Origin: Saccostrea echinata
Lineage: Eukaryota
Assembly: GCF_033153115.1 (NCBI RefSeq)
Contig: NW_026889754.1
Location: forward strand, 4,960,001 to 5,024,000
Length of the DNA stretch: 64,000 bases
Direction: 5' to 3'
Of the stretch, positions 24,134-62,001 are shown in pieces (within the stretch, counting starts at the first letter, position 1; each line of letters starts with the position of its first letter). A model generated the notes under the pieces. It had not been told where the DNA came from. It did not search any database and worked only from the letters and a program-made list of their open reading frames with translations. A program made the translations under genes and the position numbers.

Positions 24134-24604
24134 ATGGAATGTTTAAGCTCAGAGTATCGTTGGAAAATGCAAGAGCATACAGGTTCCACTAAAAAAGGAG
24201 AATGGATGAAAAACAAAGAGGAATGCATCCAAGATTTCATGGATAAGAATCCTGGAGAAACAGGACTCAATGATGTGTACCTGTATAAGAGATTCAAATT
24301 ACCGGACCATGAATGTGCACAACTCATAGTATTATTATTAGGGTCATGGGAACCCCAGTATCAGGAATTCAAATGGAAAGTAAAATACGTCTTGGCTCAC
24401 AAAACAGAGGCACCAGCAAGGACCTGGATTCAAGGAAAATGGATGGAAGAAGTCCGAGATTGTATCAAAGATTATGTAAAGAAAGTGCTCAGAGAAGGAT
24501 ACGACATCATGGACTGTGCTTGTGAAACAGAATATTTGTACATGAGGCGAACTTTTCCTATTCAAAAAGAACTATGCCAAAGTATTCCATGTTTGTTATT
24601 TTAA
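24134..24604 (+). CDS. Accessory protein A (unknown; internal two-fold repeat; paralog of 25997-26485)
   Basis: Intact 156-aa ORF with upstream TATA (24072) and downstream AATAAA; alignable to ORF 25997. Confidence 0.75.
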   Translation: MECLSSEYRWKMQEHTGSTKKGEWMKNKEECIQDFMDKNPGETGLNDVYLYKRFKLPDHECAQLIVLLLGSWEPQYQEFKWKVKYVLAHKTEAPARTWIQGKWMEEVRDCIKDYVKKVLREGYDIMDCACETEYLYMRRTFPIQKELCQSIPCLLF

Positions 24605-24660
24605 TGTTATTATTGTTGTGAATTAAACCTAAGAAAAAAAAAATAAATTCTGGTGTTGTT

Positions 24661-24705
24661 GGTTTTTCCGCATGGACTAAAAATAGATATCCCAAGGTAT
24701 ATAAA
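24661..24705 (+). promoter_or_regulatory. Promoter module copy 1: GGTTTTTCC-N7-CTAAAAATAG-TATA
   Basis: Same motifs and spacing as at 25383, 25881 and 30564. Confidence 0.65.
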
Positions 24706-24743
24706 TCTTAGCTTTGAGTTCACTGTGCTCATTTTTTTCAATC

Positions 24744-25189
24744 ATGCCTTCTGTGTGGAGAATGTCGTATTTTCTTCACCAAGAAAATAGTTCCTGTCCT
24801 CATTGCTATAGGCAGTTGAGAGAGATCAGCAGATTACCTGAGTATGACAGTGACGATGACCTTATTGGTTGGTATTGGGGATGTAATGAATGTGGAGAAC
24901 GTATACCTCACTGGGAAGTAGACGATCCCCCTAGTTTGTGGTATTGTCGCTGTGATTGGTGCCTGAAATATTACCTGTGGAAATATGGGGTTGATTTTAT
25001 GATGCCACGTTGGGCTAAGCGCATGAGAAGAAATACCAAGATCGAGAGATGCCCCTCCTGCTGGGAAGAAAACACCCAAGGAAAATGGAAATGTCAACAG
25101 TGTATGAAATATCCCTGCTGTGAAAAGTGTTACAGTCCATTATACGGCTTTCTTACAGAAATTGTCCCTTGTGTCGATTTGAACAATAA
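24744..25189 (+). pseudogene. Accessory protein B: Cys-rich RING-like protein; a frameshift hides the terminal CPLCR
   Basis: CPSC..CQQC..CCEKC, then an alternate frame reads SYRNCPLCRFEQ* (stop at 25187-25189), matching paralog 25473. Confidence 0.72.
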
Positions 25190-25249
25190 TAATAAAACTA
25201 TAAACAAAAACAAAAAACCAGGTCTTATTTTCTCAGCTGAATACATGTG

Positions 25250-25432
25250 ATGACGTCACAATAGGCAGCTTGACGGACTGGAATCGGTGCCAAGTCTATG
25301 CCTAGGTAAAAACCTGGTTTTTCCCCCAGGTAGGGGGTTGAGTGCTGAGAGCGTGCAGTTAAGAAGGTGCTGAGCGCGTGCAGGTTTTTCCAAAGCGACT
25401 ATAAATAGTCAGATCCAAAGGTATTTATAGCT
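25250..25432 (+). promoter_or_regulatory. Internal regulatory region: inverted copy of the pPolB-upstream motifs plus promoter module copy 2
   Basis: TGACGTCA at ~25251; GTGCTGAGMGCGTGCA at 25342 and 25367; GGTTTTTCC at 25316 and 25383; CTATAAATAG at 25399. Confidence 0.65.
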
Positions 25433-25472
25433 GACCTTTTTGAAGAAAAAAAAAAGTCTACCACATTTCATC

Positions 25473-25862
25473 ATGATTTTTATGTCGAGACTGGCGTATT
25501 TGTTTGAGGTAGAAAAGTATTACTGTCATTACTGTGATAGGGAGATGATCCATGAGCGTACATTTACGGTGTATGATTATCCCGGATGGCATCCCCCTTC
25601 TATGGAGACCTGTGGATGTAGCTGGTGCGTTAAATTTTTCACATGGAAGTACGGGGCAGAGAATATGGTGCCCCTATGGGTCAAAGTGACCAGGAAGAGA
25701 GCCTTAAAGAAATGCCTGACCTGCTGGGAGGAAAATACGGAGGGGAGATGGAAGTGCCAACAATGCCGACAGTATCCATGCTGTGTGAAATGTGTCGAGA
25801 ACTTCGTCAAGACTTGCTACAGACTTTGTCCATTATGTAGATATGAAGGAAATAAATCATAA
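25473..25862 (+). CDS. Accessory protein B': Cys-rich RING-like protein, intact
   Basis: CHYC..CGCSWC N-terminal Zn cluster; CLTC-x9-CQQC-x4-CCVKC-x11-CPLCR. Confidence 0.75.
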   Translation: MIFMSRLAYLFEVEKYYCHYCDREMIHERTFTVYDYPGWHPPSMETCGCSWCVKFFTWKYGAENMVPLWVKVTRKRALKKCLTCWEENTEGRWKCQQCRQYPCCVKCVENFVKTCYRLCPLCRYEGNKS

Positions 25863-25880
25863 AATCAAAAAACTGTTGTT

Positions 25881-25930
25881 GGTTTTTCCTGAGATGCTAA
25901 AAATAGATTTGATAAAAAGGTTATATAAAG
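25881..25930 (+). promoter_or_regulatory. Promoter module copy 3
   Basis: GGTTTTTCC at 25881, CTAAAAATAG at 25897, TATATAAA at 25922. Confidence 0.65.
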
Positions 25931-25996
25931 AGGTATGACCAAAAAAAATCATTCATTCTGAAAAAGTTCAGTGTCCAAGTCAGACGTGTTTTAAAG

Positions 25997-26485
25997 ATGC
26001 AGTATCGTTGGTATTGTGAGAGCCCCCTCACTCAGTTTATTTACATGCAAGGAGGGTGGATGAAAACTAAAGTAGGAGCGATCCTGGATTTCTTTGAAAA
26101 TCATCCAGGACATTCCCTGGAAAACGTGTGGCTGGAAAAAAGAGTCAAAATCCCGCATCCTAAAGGAACTAGAGTGACGGTGAAATTCAACCAGCATTAC
26201 GAGCAATATAAATGGGTCAGCTGTACTCATCCTATGAATCGTTCGACACCGATGACCCTGGTTCTGAACGAAAGTCTCTGGTACTCCGACATAGAAGAGT
26301 GTGTGATACATTTTTTCAAGATGGAGAAAAAAGAACTGACATTTCCAGATTATTACGACGTTAAACAGTACGTGTATTGTCGCATCCCCTTTTCCCAGAT
26401 CAAAGACAATATGGAAAAGGAAGGACCTGGTGTTTTGAACAGAGTGATTGATTACAGATCAGAAGAAGAAGAAGAAAAAGTGTAA
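25997..26485 (+). CDS. Accessory protein A' (unknown; paralog of 24134-24604)
   Basis: YRW..G.WMK.K..I.DF..PG..V.L.KR.K.P..KW shared with ORF 24134; downstream AATAAA. Confidence 0.75.
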   Translation: MQYRWYCESPLTQFIYMQGGWMKTKVGAILDFFENHPGHSLENVWLEKRVKIPHPKGTRVTVKFNQHYEQYKWVSCTHPMNRSTPMTLVLNESLWYSDIEECVIHFFKMEKKELTFPDYYDVKQYVYCRIPFSQIKDNMEKEGPGVLNRVIDYRSEEEEEKV

Positions 26486-26590
26486 AAAAAAAAAAAAAAA
26501 ATTAAAATAAATTTTAAAAAAAACAAACCCAAAAAGTGTTGTTATAAATAGAAGGGTCATAAGTTATTTTGTCTCAGTATCTCACTGAAC

Positions 26591-27581
26591 ATGGCCGAGA
26601 GCAGTGGTTTTTACATGACTTTACCCCAGTGATGGGTCCATGCAATCTTTTCCGAGTAATACGACTGCTCAATTTAAAACCTTAATACCACAAACAGTAG
26701 ATTTAACAGATGGCCAATGGGAAGTGGTTTTAACAGAATTGATGTATCCCATATCATTGAAAAACATCACAGAAGAGGAAGCTTATTTTGACATCCTGCT
26801 TCCTCAGTTTTATGCTCCAAAAGTCCAAGAACCTAATGTGTTTAAATGGGACAGATTTAAAATGAAAACCATAGATGCGATGCCATTAAGCCAATGTCCT
26901 GTACTGTTAGATTGGGCCCATACTGAATTTGCTAATCTCATAAGGACAGACCAGAAGATGGAAATTAGGCGAATTCACTTTAGACCGGGGCCTTACATTC
27001 ATCCCATGGCTTTAACAAGTGAAATCAGTCTTGGACTGGGAAGAAGTTTGAATAAATTATGGAAGTTTTTGGGTGATCCTAAAAAAGAGAATGCCATGAA
27101 ATTAACATATCATGACAAATATGATAAAGTGATGTATCAGTTTATGGGGAGAGAACTTAGAAAATATCCCCTTTGCATTCGTTTTCCCACAGCCTTAGCT
27201 TATAAGTTAGGAATAGAAAGTAAGAAGTTGATGCTTCAGAACGATACAGAAAACATGACCAAATGGATTAACGTTAGTTACATGGGCAACAATACCGTAG
27301 ATTTATATGAAAATCTGAAATCCATGTACGTGTATTGTGACTTGATTGAACCCCAGACGGTAGGATCCAATGCCTTGAAATTATTAAGAGTGGTTCCTTG
27401 TACACTCAATCTGGAAGATAAAAAACAAGCTAAATGGGAACCCGTTAGAGCGGAATATTTGAAACTGAGTAAAAAACATTTCGATAGCATTGAGATTCAT
27501 ATCATGACTCCTTTAGGGACTCCCATGCCTTTTTTAAATGGAAAATCGGTCGTGAAACTTCATTTCAGAAAAGTGTACTGA
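26591..27581 (+). pseudogene. Minor capsid protein (penton, single jelly-roll); +1 frameshift near the start
   Basis: MAESSGFYMTLP/SDGSMQSFPSNT..F..WEVVLTE..YP ... MYVYCDLIEPQTVG....LLRVV...IEI.I...G...LHFRK; an extra C at ~26625. Confidence 0.85.
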
Positions 27582-27582
27582 G

Positions 27583-27663
27583 ATGAGTGTACATCTTTTT
27601 TGTTACATCCTATTGGGAGTGATAACTTGTCTGATATGCTGTCTGTATTGTATTCAACCTTAA
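27583..27663 (+). CDS. 26-aa hydrophobic Cys-rich micropeptide
   Basis: MSVHLFCYILLGVITCLICCLYCIQP*; starts 1 nt after the penton stop and fills the gap to the next TATA. Confidence 0.4.
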   Translation: MSVHLFCYILLGVITCLICCLYCIQP

Positions 27664-27728
27664 GACAGGAGGGTATAAAAAGGAGTCACTTGAGTGCATT
27701 TAGGTCAGTCTGACACGAGTCATGAAAC

Positions 27729-28503
27729 ATGCAGTATCATCCCGGATTATTGAGACAAAGAGGACACGGACAGTTTGTCTATCATAGAGGTTTATTACGT
27801 CAAAAAGGACGGTTGGAGCCCTTCCCTTTGATTCTACCGGACTACCACCCTGGTTTAATCCATTCAATTTAAAGAAATTTGGTAGGTTTGTGGATCGAAT
27901 TAAATCTCAAAGAGGAGGAAATTTTTTAGACTTCCTTTCGGGAATGGTACCGAACTTACCTATAGGGATGACTTTAAAAGAAGCTGTCCAATTAGGCTCA
28001 GGCCGGCGACAAAGAGGTCGAGGATTTCTTAAAGACCTAGTCAAAATGGGTCGTAATCAAGCCTTGATTGCCGGAGCTAAAGTAGGAGCAGATGTGATTA
28101 AAAAAAGGAAAAATATCAAAAATGCTCTTTTAACTCATGGACTCAATGCCGTTAAAAATACAGGCTTATTTGCTCTCGATAGAGGAGGAGGTTTAGCTTT
28201 TAAAAAGATGAATAAGAAAGGTCAAAAAGGTAAAGGGAGAAGAAAAAGAAGAAGAGGGCAGAGAGGTAGAGGAGTTTTGAGAAATTTACTGAAAACGGGA
28301 GCTAAACATGCCTTGACTGCTGCTGCTAGAACGGGTTAGATGTGTTAGAAAATAAGAGATCTTTAAAAGACGCTGTCAAAACTCACGGAGTACAAGCCCT
28401 CAAACAAAGATTGAATCTAGGTAAGAAAAGAAGAAAAAAGACACCTGTGTTAGCCCGAGGATGTCCTAAGAAGAGAAAAAGGGGTTTAGATATCTTTGAT
28501 TGA
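27729..28503 (+). pseudogene. Basic core-like protein with repeated QxGxG motifs and an internal duplication; frameshifted
   Basis: QRGHG, QRGGN, QLGSG, QRGRG, QKGKG, QRGRG; continues in another frame to ...KRGLDIFD*; TATA at 27675 and TCAGT Inr. Confidence 0.7.
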
Positions 28504-28575
28504 GACACTATAAATAGGGGAGTCGAGTGAGATTGACCTTCATTTGTGAAAAATCAATCCTAGTAGACAGACATC

Positions 28576-29991
28576 ATGTTGCAACCAGATTCCTGTGCGT
28601 GTGGGATGAACAATTTACAATTGTTCCAAGTCCCCCCGACTAATATTGCTTTAGAAGACTCCAAATGGGAAGAATATTACCCCATTTCTAGTACTTTAGA
28701 TTCGGATACGGCTCCCATTGAATTTGAAATTAAAGGACAAGGAGATCAATATCTGGATTTATCTCAAACGTATGTTCAAATGGTGTGTAAATTTACCAAA
28801 GATGATGGTACTAATCTGACTGGGGCTGGCACTACTTGCGCCCCGGTGAATAATATCTTACATTCCTTGTTTACGGAAATCGATCTCAATGTCAATGGAA
28901 AAATAGTGACTCCAGGAACCGATACTTATCTTTACAAAGCTTATCTGGAGAAATTACTTTCTTACAAACCCAGAACTTTAATGACACAGATGAGAGCTTG
29001 TAGTCTGTGGGAAAAAGATACGGCAGGACACATGGACGAGGTGGGGGTAGCAGACCTTGGAGTGGCTCAAAATAAGACATTTAATGTAAAAAAGGGTGTA
29101 AGTGGTGATACTGTGGTCATTGACGAACCTATCGTCCCAGAGTTACCGGCCAATTCTAAAAACGAAGGATTTAGAAAACGTCACCAGGCCATAAATGATA
29201 GTAAGAAAATAGCCTTGTTTGATCGTTTACATCTGGATCTATTTCAACAAGACCGATTTCTACCCAATGGAGTAGACGTCCGTTTGAGATTTAATCGAGC
29301 TAAACCTCAGTTCTATATGATGATCAAAACGGGAAGTACGGGAAAAGTGAAAATATTGAACATGGTCTTGTGGGTGAGAAAAGTCAAACCCACGGCAGTC
29401 ATGATGAATGGCATTAATCAAAGTTTGAACACTCATAGAGCTAAATATCCATTGAGAAGAGTCGAAGTGAAAACCTTTACCATACTGACAGGAACTCAAT
29501 CTAAGATTACGGATCATCTGTTTCAAGGCCAGATGCCTAAACGTCTCATTTTAGGCTTTGTGGAAAATGCGGCTTTTAACGGAGATAAAACTAAAAATCC
29601 GTTTCATTTTCAAAACTTTGGGATTAAGAAATTAGATGTCAGTATCAACGGAGAGACCATGAGTACTCGTTGTTTTGAGCCCAATTTCAATGAAGATTTA
29701 TATCTGAGATCTTATCTGAGTCTGTATCAAGCCCTGGGAAAATTAGGAGAAGATTGGGCTCCGGACATCACCCTAGAAGAGTATAAAAACGGATACACTC
29801 TGTGGGGCTGGGATTTCACTAAAGATCAAGAAGCGCAATCGGATAAATTCCACATCATAGAAACCGGAAATCTGAGAGTAGAAGTCCAATTTACGAACAA
29901 TACGGTGAACACCTTAAATTGTGTGGTGTATGCAGAATTCGATAACCTATTAGAAATTAACAAACAGAGAGAAGTGAGTATTGATTACTAA
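28576..29991 (+). CDS. Major capsid protein (double jelly-roll, hexon-like), intact 471 aa
   Basis: [52 protein letters not shown]....NPFHFQ..GYTL...D.T.D..GNLRVE..F..CVVYAEF; located immediately before the protease. Confidence 0.93.
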
Positions 29992-30494
29992 TGGATACGG
30001 GACAGTTGAGAGAAGTCTTATCCAGAGAATTAAAGAGTTCTTTTGGTGGAGTGTACCCTGTAGATATATTACCGGATCAATTAAGACCTGGAGAAAAAGC
30101 CATTGTGGTGAATACGGATCCTCAAGATCAACCTGGAGAACACTGGGTGTGTCTGTATGTGAGCAGTCCAGTGGTGGAATATTTTGACTCTTATGGATTT
30201 CCTCCCTTACAGAAAGAAATTCAAGACTTTATCCAGCGTCATGCTCACCAATGGATTTATAATCCGTATCGATATCAAGATTGGAAGACCGATGTGTGTG
30301 GACAATATTGTGTGTATTATTTACATCAAAGACACAAGATGAGAAAGAAAGCAGACGAGTGGTTATTCCCCTTTGACCATAGCACAGCTTTACAAAGAGA
30401 TCATTATGTAGCTCAATGGTTTAAAGACACTTATCATAAAAGACCTACGGGTCATGGACAGACTTGTCAATGTTTCTATCAAAATGTAATGTAA
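29991..30494 (+). CDS. Adenain-like (Ulp1 fold) maturation cysteine protease, intact
   Basis: VVNTDP..PGEHWV (His), YFDSYG (Asp), YQ......CGQYC (Gln/Cys); TAATG stop-start coupling to the capsid gene. Confidence 0.93.
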   Translation: MDTGQLREVLSRELKSSFGGVYPVDILPDQLRPGEKAIVVNTDPQDQPGEHWVCLYVSSPVVEYFDSYGFPPLQKEIQDFIQRHAHQWIYNPYRYQDWKTDVCGQYCVYYLHQRHKMRKKADEWLFPFDHSTALQRDHYVAQWFKDTYHKRPTGHGQTCQCFYQNVM

Positions 30495-30561
30495 TTAATT
30501 GTTGTTATCAATAAAGAATTGGGAAAAAAAATCTGTTCTTGTTGTTTTTTTTTTTAAAAAA

Positions 30562-30612
30562 GGGGTTTTCCCCATGATACTAAATATAGATAGAAAAAGG
30601 TATATATAAAAA
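30562..30612 (+). promoter_or_regulatory. Orphan promoter module copy 4 (downstream gene lost)
   Basis: GGGGTTTTCCCC at 30562, CTAAATATAG at 30580, TATATATAAA at 30601; no ORF follows. Confidence 0.6.
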
Positions 30613-31399
30613 AAATCGGTGGGCGGAGCGTGGATGCGTGAATTTCAGAGAGAGAGAGAGAGAGAGGTACTTTTATTGTATATCTTACACTCCCATATGT
30701 GGTCTGTGCTTCTTGAAGGGTCCGACACCTTATTTATATAAATGAAGTAAGCAAAGAGGGGTCCGAACCGCCCCTCCTCGCCTAGTCGTATAGTGGAATA
30801 TTCTACGGGCCTGCCGCCGAAATATGGTTAAAATATTACCGACTCGGCGTTAAACAATAAACAATTAATCAATCTTGACAATCTAACGGCCTGAATTACT
30901 GGTAAACGATAAACTCGGAACCTTTCTCAAGGTTTGGGTTACAGGTACTCGTTATTATGACGTCATTTACGTAAAATGACGTTGATTCTAACCGTTGCTG
31001 CATAATAGACGAGTGTACCTCATAAATTGAATTTATAATAGTATGAAAAAAAATACATTTGAAATGAAATAGTGTACAATATACATCTCATTGAGCATAT
31101 TCAATAGTAACAATTATGAATAACAACTCATTTATCTGAAAAATTTCATGGCGTCATCAGTGGTATGAATTTTACTACGTTTATCCATATATTTGCCTGA
31201 AATTTTCATGATATTCTACAAATAAGTCATGAAAAACTGTAATGTTATGCAATAAAAAGGTGCAAACGTTTAACAATTATTTACATTGAATAAAAGTAAA
31301 AGAAATACATGGTCACAATTCAGTTCAATAAAATCGGCCCCGTGGCACTCTACGCAACTGTGTGATCGGCCCAAAATCCGCCCTGTGGCACAGAAGTGG

Positions 31400-31680
31400 T
31401 TAATTTCACTCGGCAAATATTTGATCAATAGTTATGACGTCATGGGTTTGGTATTTAACCCCCGTGCTAAATAATTAGCTATTTATACCACCCCAAAACG
31501 ACAAGATTTAGTTTATATTATGTTTTGAATGATTCCATTCATTTCTTGGACCTGAAATTAAACTTTAAATATAGATATTAAGAAAACATTATTTCTAAGT
31601 TCACGTCATACAGCTTACTATGACGTCATATTGTAAAGGCAAGTAGGATATCTCTGGGTGTAGCCTTAACATACCCGCGT
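31400..31680 (-). repeat. Right arm of the inverted repeat pairing with 10625-10907
   Basis: Ends ...GGGTGTAGCCTTAACATACCCGCGT. Confidence 0.9.
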
Positions 31681-61205: not shown

Positions 61206-61369
61206 CGGTCCGACGCAAGTAATCCACGGAACAAGACATTTCAATACAAGTAAAGTTAAACGAATGATTTCCAGTAATACTAATAATAGAGCTATATATG
61301 GTAAAACTAGTGCTAATTGTAACGGGAACCGTTACAGATGTTCCCCAAACGACTCCCAAATTCTTGTGA

Positions 61370-62001
61370 TGCCACAGAGTCTGACACATCTGTTTCATAT
61401 TTGGATATTTTACTTGAAAAAGACGTTAATGGTAATCTAACAACCAAGCTTTATGATAAACGTGATGACTAACTTTTCAATCGTCAACTTCCCTTACTTA
61501 TGCAGCAATATACCTTCATCACCTGCATACGGGGTATATATACCTTCATCACCTGCATACGGGGTATATATCTCTCAGTTGATTCGATACGCAAGAGCAT
61601 GTACAATTTCTAAAAAGAGGTAAATTATTGACAAATAAGTTGATGAAACAAGGATATCAGCTGTCTCGTTTAAAGTCATCAATTTGTAAGTTCTATGGTC
61701 GATACAATGACCTTGTCAGCAAATACAATTTATCATTGAGTCAAATGCTGACTGACGTTTTTCATACTAATTGTTAGGCCATGATTTACACACTGAATTG
61801 TCGACGGATTTTTCCGTTATTTCCCGATCATGACAAGGAGCACACGGCGGGTGTGACCGGTCGGCAGGGGATGCTCACTCCTCCATGGCACCTGATCCCA
61901 CCTCTGATGTTTGGAGGTCCATGTTTGCTCTGCTCCTATTTTGTGTTGTTTAATGGACTTTTGAGCTTGAATACTGTTCGTTATCTCCATATATTTCATT
62001 C
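61370..62001 (+). mobile_element. Penelope/Naiad-like RT 3' fragment with 3' UTR
   Basis: Near-identical to the reverse complement of 35417-36028, with a 31-bp internal duplication at ~61509-61570. Confidence 0.85.

What the first reader, a model, noticed from the sequence alone, without database searches (positions are those of the whole stretch)
24134..26485. Mirror-ordered A-B-B'-A' accessory cassette of two unrecognised paralog pairs
Seen: four same-strand genes between integrase/TM and penton; 24134 is paralogous to 25997 and 24744 to 25473. The pairs are well diverged yet mostly still open, each with a promoter and poly-A signal, and a regulatory repeat sits at the centre. Inference: a host-interaction module expanded by duplication, for example a substrate adaptor (A) plus E3 ligase (B). 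I do not recognise it from described Polinton gene sets, so it is the best candidate here for an undescribed system.
Basis: partly seen in the sequence, partly recalled or inferred. Interest (0 to 1): 0.8.

Follow-up and report, generated by a model that had tools for sequence, protein, structure and literature searches.

The report
Variable accessory-gene slot in oyster Polinton
The four genes are real paralog pairs in a virus-like transposon, but their mirror order is just one state of a slot that gains and loses genes; one gene type looks like a RING ubiquitin ligase and the other is a small protein family not found in the libraries searched.

Summary
Observation confirmed: A (24134) ~ A' (25997) and B (24744) ~ B' (25473) are paralogs, each with its own TATA box and poly-A signal, inside a decayed Polinton/Maverick. 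This genome holds at least about 150 related elements. In this copy B is frameshifted and B' is internally deleted. The mirror is not a design. Among 103 loci the TM-penton slot holds A-B-B'-A' (35), A-B'-A' (24), A-B' (17), A' alone (6), nothing (6) or other mixes. Divergence patterns point to swapping of whole promoter-gene-polyA units. B is a zinc ribbon plus C4C4 RING, probably an E3 ligase. A is a tandem duplication of a ~65-residue beta-beta-alpha-beta domain with no Pfam, PHROG, NCBIfam or PDB match. B never occurs without an A-family gene (82 of 82), but A occurs without B (15 of 97). A also occurs without B in a second Polinton family, beside GADD34-like and macrodomain-like genes, and in two metagenome contigs as A-zinc ribbon-A (one followed by penton). 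Best reading: a dispensable, fast-evolving host-interaction slot; an obligate adaptor-ligase pair is not supported. The new item is family A.

The parts
14746..30655 (+). Decayed Polinton/Maverick element holding the cassette; left end begins with the AGTAGT terminal motif; the right part, present in sister copies, is missing after the protease gene
   Evidence: Pfam DNA_pol_B_2 (E 2e-23), rve (8e-11), Pox_A32 (0.0016, weak); terminal motif at 14746; sister copies continue after the protease with further genes. Right boundary is approximate, read from the sequence.
14893..15017 (-). Repeated motifs upstream of the polymerase; inverted counterpart of the repeat upstream of B'
   Evidence: blastn self-match, 82% over 57 nt (E 2e-9) and 90% over 31 nt
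19274..19777 (+). IAP gene (BIR + RING), split by a frameshift in this copy; context for the cassette
   Evidence: RING zf-C3HC4_3 E 3e-12; BIR match by tblastn in another frame; one open BIR+RING frame in sister locus L134
23767..24033 (+). Small TM protein gene, constant left border of the slot
   Evidence: 150 matches in the genome; precedes the slot in the census
24134..24604 (+). Gene A, 156 aa, full length: two tandem beta-beta-alpha-beta domains, no known family found
   Evidence: AF2 mean pLDDT 72; halves align with hhalign probability 97.6%, E 4.5e-12, column-shuffled controls at most 1.9%; no family hit
24744..25250 (+). Gene B: N-terminal CxxC-x25-CxxC zinc ribbon, CxCxxC, C-terminal C4C4 RING; frameshifted near 25135 in this copy
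   Evidence: Alignment with sister copies; full 8-Cys pattern in 19 of 20 B ORFs of sister SF1 loci, absent in the window's B
25251..25472 (+). B-B' spacer: TGACGTCA site at 25251, two TGCTGAG units (25343, 25368), two GTTTTTCC sites, TATA at 25400; promoter region of B', variable in length and content among copies
25473..25862 (+). Gene B', paralog of B with a complete RING; lacks 21 codons of the N-terminal zinc ribbon near 25593 in this copy
   Evidence: 129 aa against 147-163 aa in 19 of 19 sister SF1 ORFs
25997..26485 (+). Gene A', 162 aa, full length, old paralog of A with an acidic tail
   Evidence: separate, fully supported clade in trees
26640..27581 (+).
   Evidence: follows the slot in the census; no Pfam hit

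Best explanation
The stretch between the TM gene and the penton is a dispensable accessory slot of one Polinton family. Each gene is a self-contained unit (TATA promoter, ORF, poly-A signal). Units are gained, lost and swapped by recombination between co-resident subfamilies (shown as a pattern; the recombination mechanism is inferred). The A-B-B'-A' order arose when an old paralog, B, entered an A-B'-A' slot; no mirror duplication is needed (inferred). B/B' most likely act as RING E3 ubiquitin ligases that pick a host target with their own N-terminal zinc domains and remove or modify it (RING shown by pattern and weak fold match; activity inferred, about 0.65). A/A' are a separate small binding module, one or two aromatic-rich alpha/beta domains, that binds a host protein or nucleic acid and can work without B (independence shown; ligand inferred, about 0.3 for any one class). 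Together they belong to the element's counter-defence and host-conditioning kit; extra diverged paralogs would widen or shift the targets.
For: Slot census of 103 loci: A-B-B'-A' 35, A-B'-A' 24, A-B' 17, A' alone 6, empty 6, A-A' 5, A alone 3 (2 of them truncated), 7 other (maps). Gene-by-gene mosaicism: SF1 vs SF2 dS is 0.20 for integrase, 0.21 TM, 0.19 A, 0.28 B', 0.14 penton, but 0.83 for A'; SF1 vs SF3 dS is 0.36 integrase, 0.50 A, but 0.25 B'. B vs B' dS about 1.8 and A vs A' saturated, so both duplications are much older than the subfamilies. All cassette dN/dS values are below 1, and between subfamilies they are higher than for integrase: A 0.32-0.46, A' 0.37-0.59, B' 0.23-0.30, integrase 0.13-0.15. 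Related terminator-promoter DNA lies before B and before A' (77% over 56 nt). B's C-terminus: about 47 of 50 fold-search rows are RING or U-box chains by my reading of the titles. The B profile matches a second, Pro-rich RING gene of the same elements in 3 of 5 right-arm loci scanned at E<0.01 (best 4e-6), and genes of that type reach Pfam zf-C3HC4_3 at E 0.035-0.00028. Context genes: IAP, PP1c_bdg (E 8e-6), macrodomain-like. In a second Polinton family a one-domain A lies directly beside a PP1c_bdg gene (E 4e-8) and a macrodomain-like gene, with no B.
Against: No activity, target or expression is shown. The B model is poor (mean pLDDT 52.7, RING part below 50) and its fold matches are weak (best Z 3.9, rmsd 3.4 over 51 residues); the top rows are the TFIIH p44 C-terminal domain, and arenavirus Z is in the list, so a RING fold need not mean ligase. 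B/B' themselves pass no Pfam RING cut-off and hit ZZ at E 0.0055-0.025. B is never without an A-family gene (82 of 82), which a purely independent reading does not predict. dN/dS sets were picked from top-scoring, full-length copies, which biases dN down; penton dN/dS (0.25-0.33 for five of six comparisons) overlaps that of B'. The census is not a random sample: loci came from the A', A and TM hit lists, and about 50 of the 150 TM hits were not read.
Confidence: 0.55

Rival explanations
1. Two-part degradation module: A is a substrate adaptor or host-factor binder and B is the ligase that depends on it; A can also act alone or with another zinc protein.
For: 82 of 82 B-bearing loci carry an A-family gene, 81 with A-type directly upstream. 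30 of 30 loci picked by B' have A' downstream. A-B adjacency recurs in rearranged elements L111, L117, L118. Two outside contigs show A - zinc ribbon - A.
Against: A-family genes lack B in 15 of 97 loci, including a whole subfamily (6 of 6 SF4), in the second Polinton family and in both outside contigs; their middle zinc gene is not detectably related to B (hhalign probability 0.6%). B' and A have different divergence histories. Linkage in one slot explains co-occurrence without partnership, since few independent events underlie the 82 loci.
Confidence: 0.2
2. A is an optional virion-associated or genome-binding protein of the morphogenesis block, and B is a bystander.
For: An A-family gene lies directly before the penton in SF1, SF2, SF4 and in outside contig L171. 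Distant A homologues are basic, pI 8.3-9.7.
Against: Six loci have an empty slot. A' type does not track penton type: SF1 and SF2 share the penton (about 90%) but A' is 55% identical; SF3, SF4 and the empty-slot copies share a divergent penton yet have B', A' or nothing before it. In the second family A sits among non-structural genes. Window A and A' have pI 6.3.
Confidence: 0.1
3. B is a non-catalytic RING that binds a transcription or repair complex (as the TFIIH p44 C-terminal C4C4 domain or arenavirus Z do), and A/B regulate the element's own transcription.
For: The four best fold rows are p44/Ssl1-type chains (Z 3.5-3.9, 18-26% identity). The promoters of the four genes and of the polymerase share a motif: 7 of 11 GGAAAAAC sites in the window lie there, 4.5 expected in the whole window. 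The second family pairs A with PC4-domain genes.
Against: All Z values are low and within about 1 of many E3 RINGs. The RING ends in C-P-L-C-R, the ending typical of active RING ligases (recalled, not tested). The motif was chosen after looking at the sequence.
Confidence: 0.1
4. The paralogs are near-neutral cargo, copied along with a successful element.
For: The slot can be empty; the window's B and B' are damaged; within-subfamily dN/dS reaches 0.4-0.66.
Against: Between subfamilies and paralogs dN/dS is 0.17-0.59 with cysteines and aromatic residues kept; family A persists at 25-40% identity in other lineages.
Confidence: 0.05

Closest known systems
Polinton/Maverick (adintovirus-type) accessory genes, including 'Adintoc' and 'Oncoid' genes (Starrett et al. 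2021, PMC8502044; section 3.2 and passages read)
   Same: Same kind of element, with IAP-type and cysteine-rich accessory genes and conserved unknowns; the paper reports IAP and Bcl2 homologues and unnamed conserved proteins.
   Different: Oncoids are defined by LXCXE/CR1 motifs beside paired CXXC and usually lie upstream of PolB; this slot lies between TM and penton. The passages read describe no RING-plus-zinc-ribbon gene or A-like domain. I did not see the supplementary gene maps, so A or B could be an unnamed Adintoc there.
Viral RING E3 ligases such as herpesvirus ICP0, poxvirus p28, baculovirus IE2/PE38 (recalled)
   Same: Small viral genes with a RING and a separate recognition part, used against host defence.
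   Different: B has a C4C4 RING at the C-terminus with zinc ribbon and CxCxxC parts in front; no sequence or structural match to these was found.
C4C4 RING-like domain of TFIIH p44/Ssl1; CNOT4 RING
   Same: Eight-cysteine cross-brace; p44-type chains are the top fold rows and the UbcH5B-CNOT4 entry is row 15.
   Different: Z only 2.9-3.9 on a low-confidence model; no detectable sequence match.
Gene accordions and variable accessory regions of DNA viruses (recalled for poxviruses); mosaicism in Polisuviricotina (bioRxiv 10.64898/2026.10.13.758929, abstract and passages read)
   Same: Module exchange and copy-number change among related genomes.
   Different: That preprint's passages concern replication and capsid modules; here single accessory genes vary in one slot among subfamilies inside one host genome.

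Membership tests
Polinton/Maverick | Protein-primed family B polymerase | tested here: met
   Pfam DNA_pol_B_2, E 2e-23 and 3e-25, split over several ORFs in this copy
Polinton/Maverick | Retroviral-type integrase | tested here: met
   Pfam rve E 8e-11 plus chromodomain
Polinton/Maverick | Packaging ATPase, major capsid, penton, cysteine protease | tested here: inconclusive
   ATPase fragment hits Pox_A32 at E 0.0016, under the cut-off; the other three have no Pfam hit and are labelled from recall and position
Polinton/Maverick | Terminal inverted repeats with AGT-type ends, target-site duplication | tested here: inconclusive
   Left AGTAGT end at 14746, also in L119 and L134; right end missing in the window; target-site duplication not examined
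RING E3 ligase (B/B') | Eight zinc ligands in RING spacing | tested here: met
   C-x2-C-x10-C-x2-C-x5-C-x2-C-x11-C-x2-C in 19 of 20 B and 19 of 19 B' ORFs of sister SF1 loci and in the window's B'; not in the window's frameshifted B
RING E3 ligase (B/B') | RING fold | tested here: inconclusive
   Model residues 91-146 match RING/U-box chains at Z up to 3.9, but pLDDT there is below 50
RING E3 ligase (B/B') | E2 binding and ubiquitin transfer | not testable with these tools
   Needs a bench assay
ZZ zinc finger (B/B') | Final ligand pair made of histidines; Pfam ZZ cut-off (definition recalled) | tested here: not met
   Best 16.9 bits against a cut-off of 21.4, covering only the first six ligands; the last pair is CxxC
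Adintovirus Oncoid | LXCXE motif beside paired CXXC, usually upstream of PolB (PMC8502044, section 3.2) | tested here: inconclusive
   Read from the alignment: B' has one LXCXE string, but its cysteine is a RING ligand and B lacks it; position does not fit
Obligate adaptor + E3 pair | Both genes always travel together | tested here: not met
   B with an A-family gene 82 of 82; A-family gene without B 15 of 97, and 4 of 4 second-family loci and 2 of 2 outside contigs
Any curated family for A/A' | Profile or fold match | tested here: inconclusive
   No hit over cut-off in Pfam, PHROGs, NCBIfam or PDB sequences; best fold Z 7.0 to a designed protein (rmsd 5.3, 122 aligned), within the background range

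The most novel reading that the evidence does not exclude
Family A is an undescribed viral binding domain, used singly or in tandem by several animal Polinton lineages. In the pre-penton slot two diverged A genes flank an exchangeable zinc-protein effector (a RING ligase in oysters, an unrelated zinc ribbon in another lineage), forming a plug-in targeting system in which A picks the host target and the middle gene acts on it.
Probability: 0.15. Interest if true: 0.75.

Novelty: new variant of a known kind. Interest (0 to 1): 0.48.

Why it matters
Animal Polintons are usually known from a few decayed copies, and what their accessory genes do is open. Here one genome holds at least about 150 young copies (within-subfamily dS mostly 0.02-0.07) in subfamilies with 0, 1, 2, 3 or 4 genes in the same slot, a natural series for asking which accessory genes help an element spread. 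Family A is a new small domain found in three Polinton lineages. Its neighbours (IAP, GADD34/ICP34.5-like, macrodomain-like, RING) suggest these elements face the same defences as true viruses. Finding the targets of A and B would name mollusc defence factors against DNA viruses.

Tried and rejected
Inverted or mirror duplication: rejected; all four genes are on one strand, the self-comparison shows no inverted match between the halves, and the two pairs split at different depths. Central repeat as an organising axis: rejected; it varies among sister copies and is absent from the A-B' spacers of SF2 and SF3. A+B complex prediction: no verdict (score 0.00 in two runs, alignments not used, partner fold uncertain); no evidence either way. 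Single-sequence homologue searches with window B' and A': none at E<=0.001; B was not searched again with a profile in the large protein sets, so its range outside this genome is little tested. IMG/VR scans: 6 scans, no relative. First metagenome scan: none. ESM Atlas: no usable hit for A' or a distant A homologue. Foldseek for A against PDB (none at E<=0.001) and BFVD (one at 8e-4 with rmsd 12), and for B against BFVD (none). Weak fold rows for A (Y-family polymerase little finger Z up to 6.6, ribosomal chains, ERH, AcrIIA15) are within background and were not used. Expression: no RNA holder listed; contigs of four runs only guessed to be RNA cover pieces of A, B, B' and A', but also intergenic DNA, so transcription is not shown. 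Whether the A-zinc-A order in the outside contigs shares an origin with A-B-A' is unresolved: none of three constrained trees was rejected (p-AU 0.11-0.47). Earlier findings of this scan: three look-ups, nothing. Literature: eight searches showed no description of this slot or of family A; subscription journals, Repbase entries and supplements were not seen.

Full report
Setting. The four genes lie in a Polinton/Maverick that starts at an AGTAGT end at 14746. It encodes a split pPolB (Pfam DNA_pol_B_2), a split IAP, an ATPase fragment, an rve integrase with chromodomain, a small TM protein, the slot, and then penton-like, core-like, major capsid and protease genes (the last four labels are from recall and position). 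This copy is decayed and ends shortly after the protease, where sister copies continue. The nearest named homologues of A are Saccostrea gene models, so the host is most likely an oyster.

Observation. A~A' (z 16) and B~B' (z 30) are real, and cross pairs are at chance. Each gene has a TATA box and a poly-A signal. The central repeat at 25339-25392 is an inverted match to the region upstream of the polymerase. It is simply the upstream region of B', and its length and content vary among copies. In this copy A and A' are full length, B is frameshifted near 25135 inside the RING, and B' lacks 21 codons near 25593.

The slot across the genome. Searches of the genome gave 274 matches for B', 152 for A', 150 for A and 150 for TM, all lower bounds. 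I read 103 loci including the window, picked from the A', A, B' and TM lists; about 50 TM hits were not read. Content: A-B-B'-A' 35 (SF1), A-B'-A' 24 (SF2), A-B' 17 (SF3), A' alone 6 (SF4), empty 6, A-A' 5, A alone 3 (two truncated), A-B-A' 2, and one each of A-B, A-B'-A' with SF1-type A', B-B'-A', A' in a deleted element, and a six-gene A-B-A-B'-B-A' array. That array (L111) follows PolB and IAP directly, with no capsid genes in the stretch read. All 82 loci with a B-type gene carry an A-family gene; 15 of 97 loci with an A-family gene have no B. The mirror order is therefore one subfamily's state.

How the order arose. Between SF1 and SF2, synonymous distance is about 0.2 for integrase, TM and A, 0.28 for B', 0.14 for penton, but 0.83 for A'. 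Between SF1 and SF3, B' (0.25) is closer than integrase (0.36) or A (0.50). B and B' differ by dS about 1.8, and A and A' are saturated. So old paralogs are being swapped as single units. The simplest path is that B entered an A-B'-A' slot and A' was replaced by a distant allele (inference). Related terminator-promoter DNA before B and A' could serve as crossover sites (inference). All cassette genes show dN/dS below 1, with higher values than integrase between subfamilies (0.23-0.59 against 0.13-0.15), though penton overlaps B' and the sets were biased to intact, top-scoring copies.

Protein B. Full-length copies (147-150 aa) have a CxxC-x25-CxxC zinc ribbon, a CxCxxC motif and an eight-cysteine C-terminal domain ending in C-P-L-C-R. 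The pattern is complete in 19 of 20 B and 19 of 19 B' ORFs of sister SF1 loci. The AF2 model is poor (pLDDT 52.7), but residues 91-146 match RING and U-box chains in about 47 of 50 rows, best Z 3.9 to p44/Ssl1-type domains. A second, Pro-rich RING gene in the right arm of full elements has the same core spacing, is found by the B profile (best E 4e-6) and hits Pfam zf-C3HC4_3 weakly. A partial ZZ match stays under the cut-off and the last ligand pair is CxxC. RING is likely; ligase activity is inferred.

Protein A. AF2 (pLDDT 72, pTM 0.68) gives two beta-beta-alpha-beta repeats, and the two halves of the family alignment match each other with 97.6% probability against at most 1.9% for 30 shuffled controls. 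No curated family or solved structure matches. A profile finds 27 representatives in 1.84 billion proteins, of which one (P0030, a repeat protein) looks spurious, and a wider profile finds 86 clusters, mostly 31-40% identical, nearly all unnamed and on short contigs. A and A' form separate clades, each with members from outside this genome.

A outside this slot. A second Polinton family in the same genome (integrase 34%, capsid 29% identical) carries a one-domain, 80-aa A gene in 4 of 4 loci read. It is followed by a PP1-binding GADD34/ICP34.5-like gene and a macrodomain-like gene, with PC4-domain genes nearby and no B. Two metagenome contigs, OCZB010027316.1 and OBLZ010097194.1, show A - zinc-ribbon gene - A, and the first continues into a penton homologue (41%, E 2e-19). 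The middle gene is not detectably related to B. Whether this sandwich is inherited or arose twice could not be decided. One run labelled as another organism holds contig pieces like A and B', a weak sign that both occur in a related host.

Mechanism. Shown: modular genes, variable slot, old paralogs, purifying selection, RING-type cysteine pattern in B, independence of A from B. Inferred: B ubiquitinates a host defence or silencing factor chosen by its own zinc domains; A binds a host protein or nucleic acid; extra paralogs widen targets. The company these genes keep supports a counter-defence role: IAP, PP1c_bdg gene (E 8e-6), macrodomain-like gene and second RING in the same elements. Overall confidence 0.55. 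A one-way dependence of B on A stays possible (0.2) because B was never seen alone, but few independent events underlie that count.

Comparison with what is known. Starrett et al. (PMC8502044; section 3.2 and passages read) describe IAP, Bcl2, Oncoid and unnamed Adintoc genes in animal Polintons, but nothing matching A or B in the text seen; supplements were not seen and may bear on this. The coral polintovirus paper (PMC11131425; term search only) has no mention of ubiquitin, apoptosis or zinc proteins. A survey preprint (10.1101/2025.04.19.649669; passages) reports Polinton-type regions as abundant in bivalves. A mosaicism preprint (10.64898/2026.10.13.758929; abstract and passages) deals with replication and capsid modules. 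Eight paper searches showed no description of this slot.

Verdict. A new variant of a known kind: a variable accessory slot in a Polinton, with a probable RING ligase and one undescribed protein family. Interest 0.48; 0.75 if A proves to be a targeting module for exchangeable effectors (probability 0.15).

Noticed in passing
L123:4091-4561 and 4803-5312 (+), L128:4863-5438 (+), L124:1443-2075 (+), L129:4720-5349 (-): Several subfamilies carry one or two ORFs after the protease that resemble the circovirus-type Rep endonuclease domain (Pfam Viral_Rep E 1.4e-4 to 0.02, under the cut-off). A rolling-circle initiator domain in a protein-primed element is unexpected.
   Followed up: partly
L124:3862-4359 (-), L122:7201-7698 (-), L152:4604-4834 (-): GADD34/ICP34.5-like PP1-binding genes (PP1c_bdg E 8e-6 and 4e-8) in two distinct Polinton families; in the first it overlaps a second conserved 137-aa ORF in another frame.
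   Followed up: partly
L121:4023-4520 (+), L123:5591-6082 (+), L154:4076-4594 (-): Macrodomain-like ORF shared by both Polinton families (about 50% identical); only a weak N-terminal match to DarG (E 7e-5), no Pfam or PDB sequence hit.
   Followed up: partly
L121:6039-6746 (-), L123:6576-7556 (-), L125:1900-2619 (-), L117:1403-1942 (+): Pro/Arg-rich protein with a C4C4 RING on the opposite strand in the right arm; distant paralog of B's RING.
   Followed up: partly
L111/L130 (G000:C14:1177000-1194000): Element with PolB and IAP followed directly by a six-gene A-B-A-B'-B-A' array and a Rep-like gene; no ATPase, integrase or capsid genes in the stretch read; possibly a non-autonomous form.
   Followed up: partly
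window 19274-19777; L134, L135: The IAP gene between PolB and ATPase is itself optional: present in the window and L134, absent in L135 (SF3). Saccostrea gene models annotated as IAP or uncharacterised are BIR fused to pieces of A (P0007, P0022).
   Followed up: partly
L151:2970-3794 (-), L152:5219-5680 (-): Second Polinton family carries two PC4-domain genes, one with tandem domains and one with a TM segment.
   Followed up: no
window 14962, 15021, 24083, 24662, 25317, 25384, 25882: GGAAAAAC motif in the upstream regions of the polymerase and all four slot genes (7 of 11 sites in the window; 4.5 expected in the whole window, 1 of 100 shuffles reaches 11); resembles Rel/NFAT sites (recalled). 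TGACGTCA (CRE-like, recalled) at 15039 and 25251.
   Followed up: partly
L124:4851-5504 (+), L131:6349-7005 (-): Zinc-knuckle (CCHC) gene near the element's right end (E 7e-15).
   Followed up: no
window 10713-10907 and 31400-31594: Inverted repeat pair (195 nt, 94%) bracketing the Polinton from outside; looks like the ends of a separate host repeat, not the Polinton's own ends.
   Followed up: no
window 35417-36596, 38671-39246, 61368-62000: Fragments of a reverse-transcriptase-like retroelement (label recalled) in several copies; also tandem arrays of 156 nt (4198-5261) and about 168 nt (6400-7970, 33080-33830).
   Followed up: no
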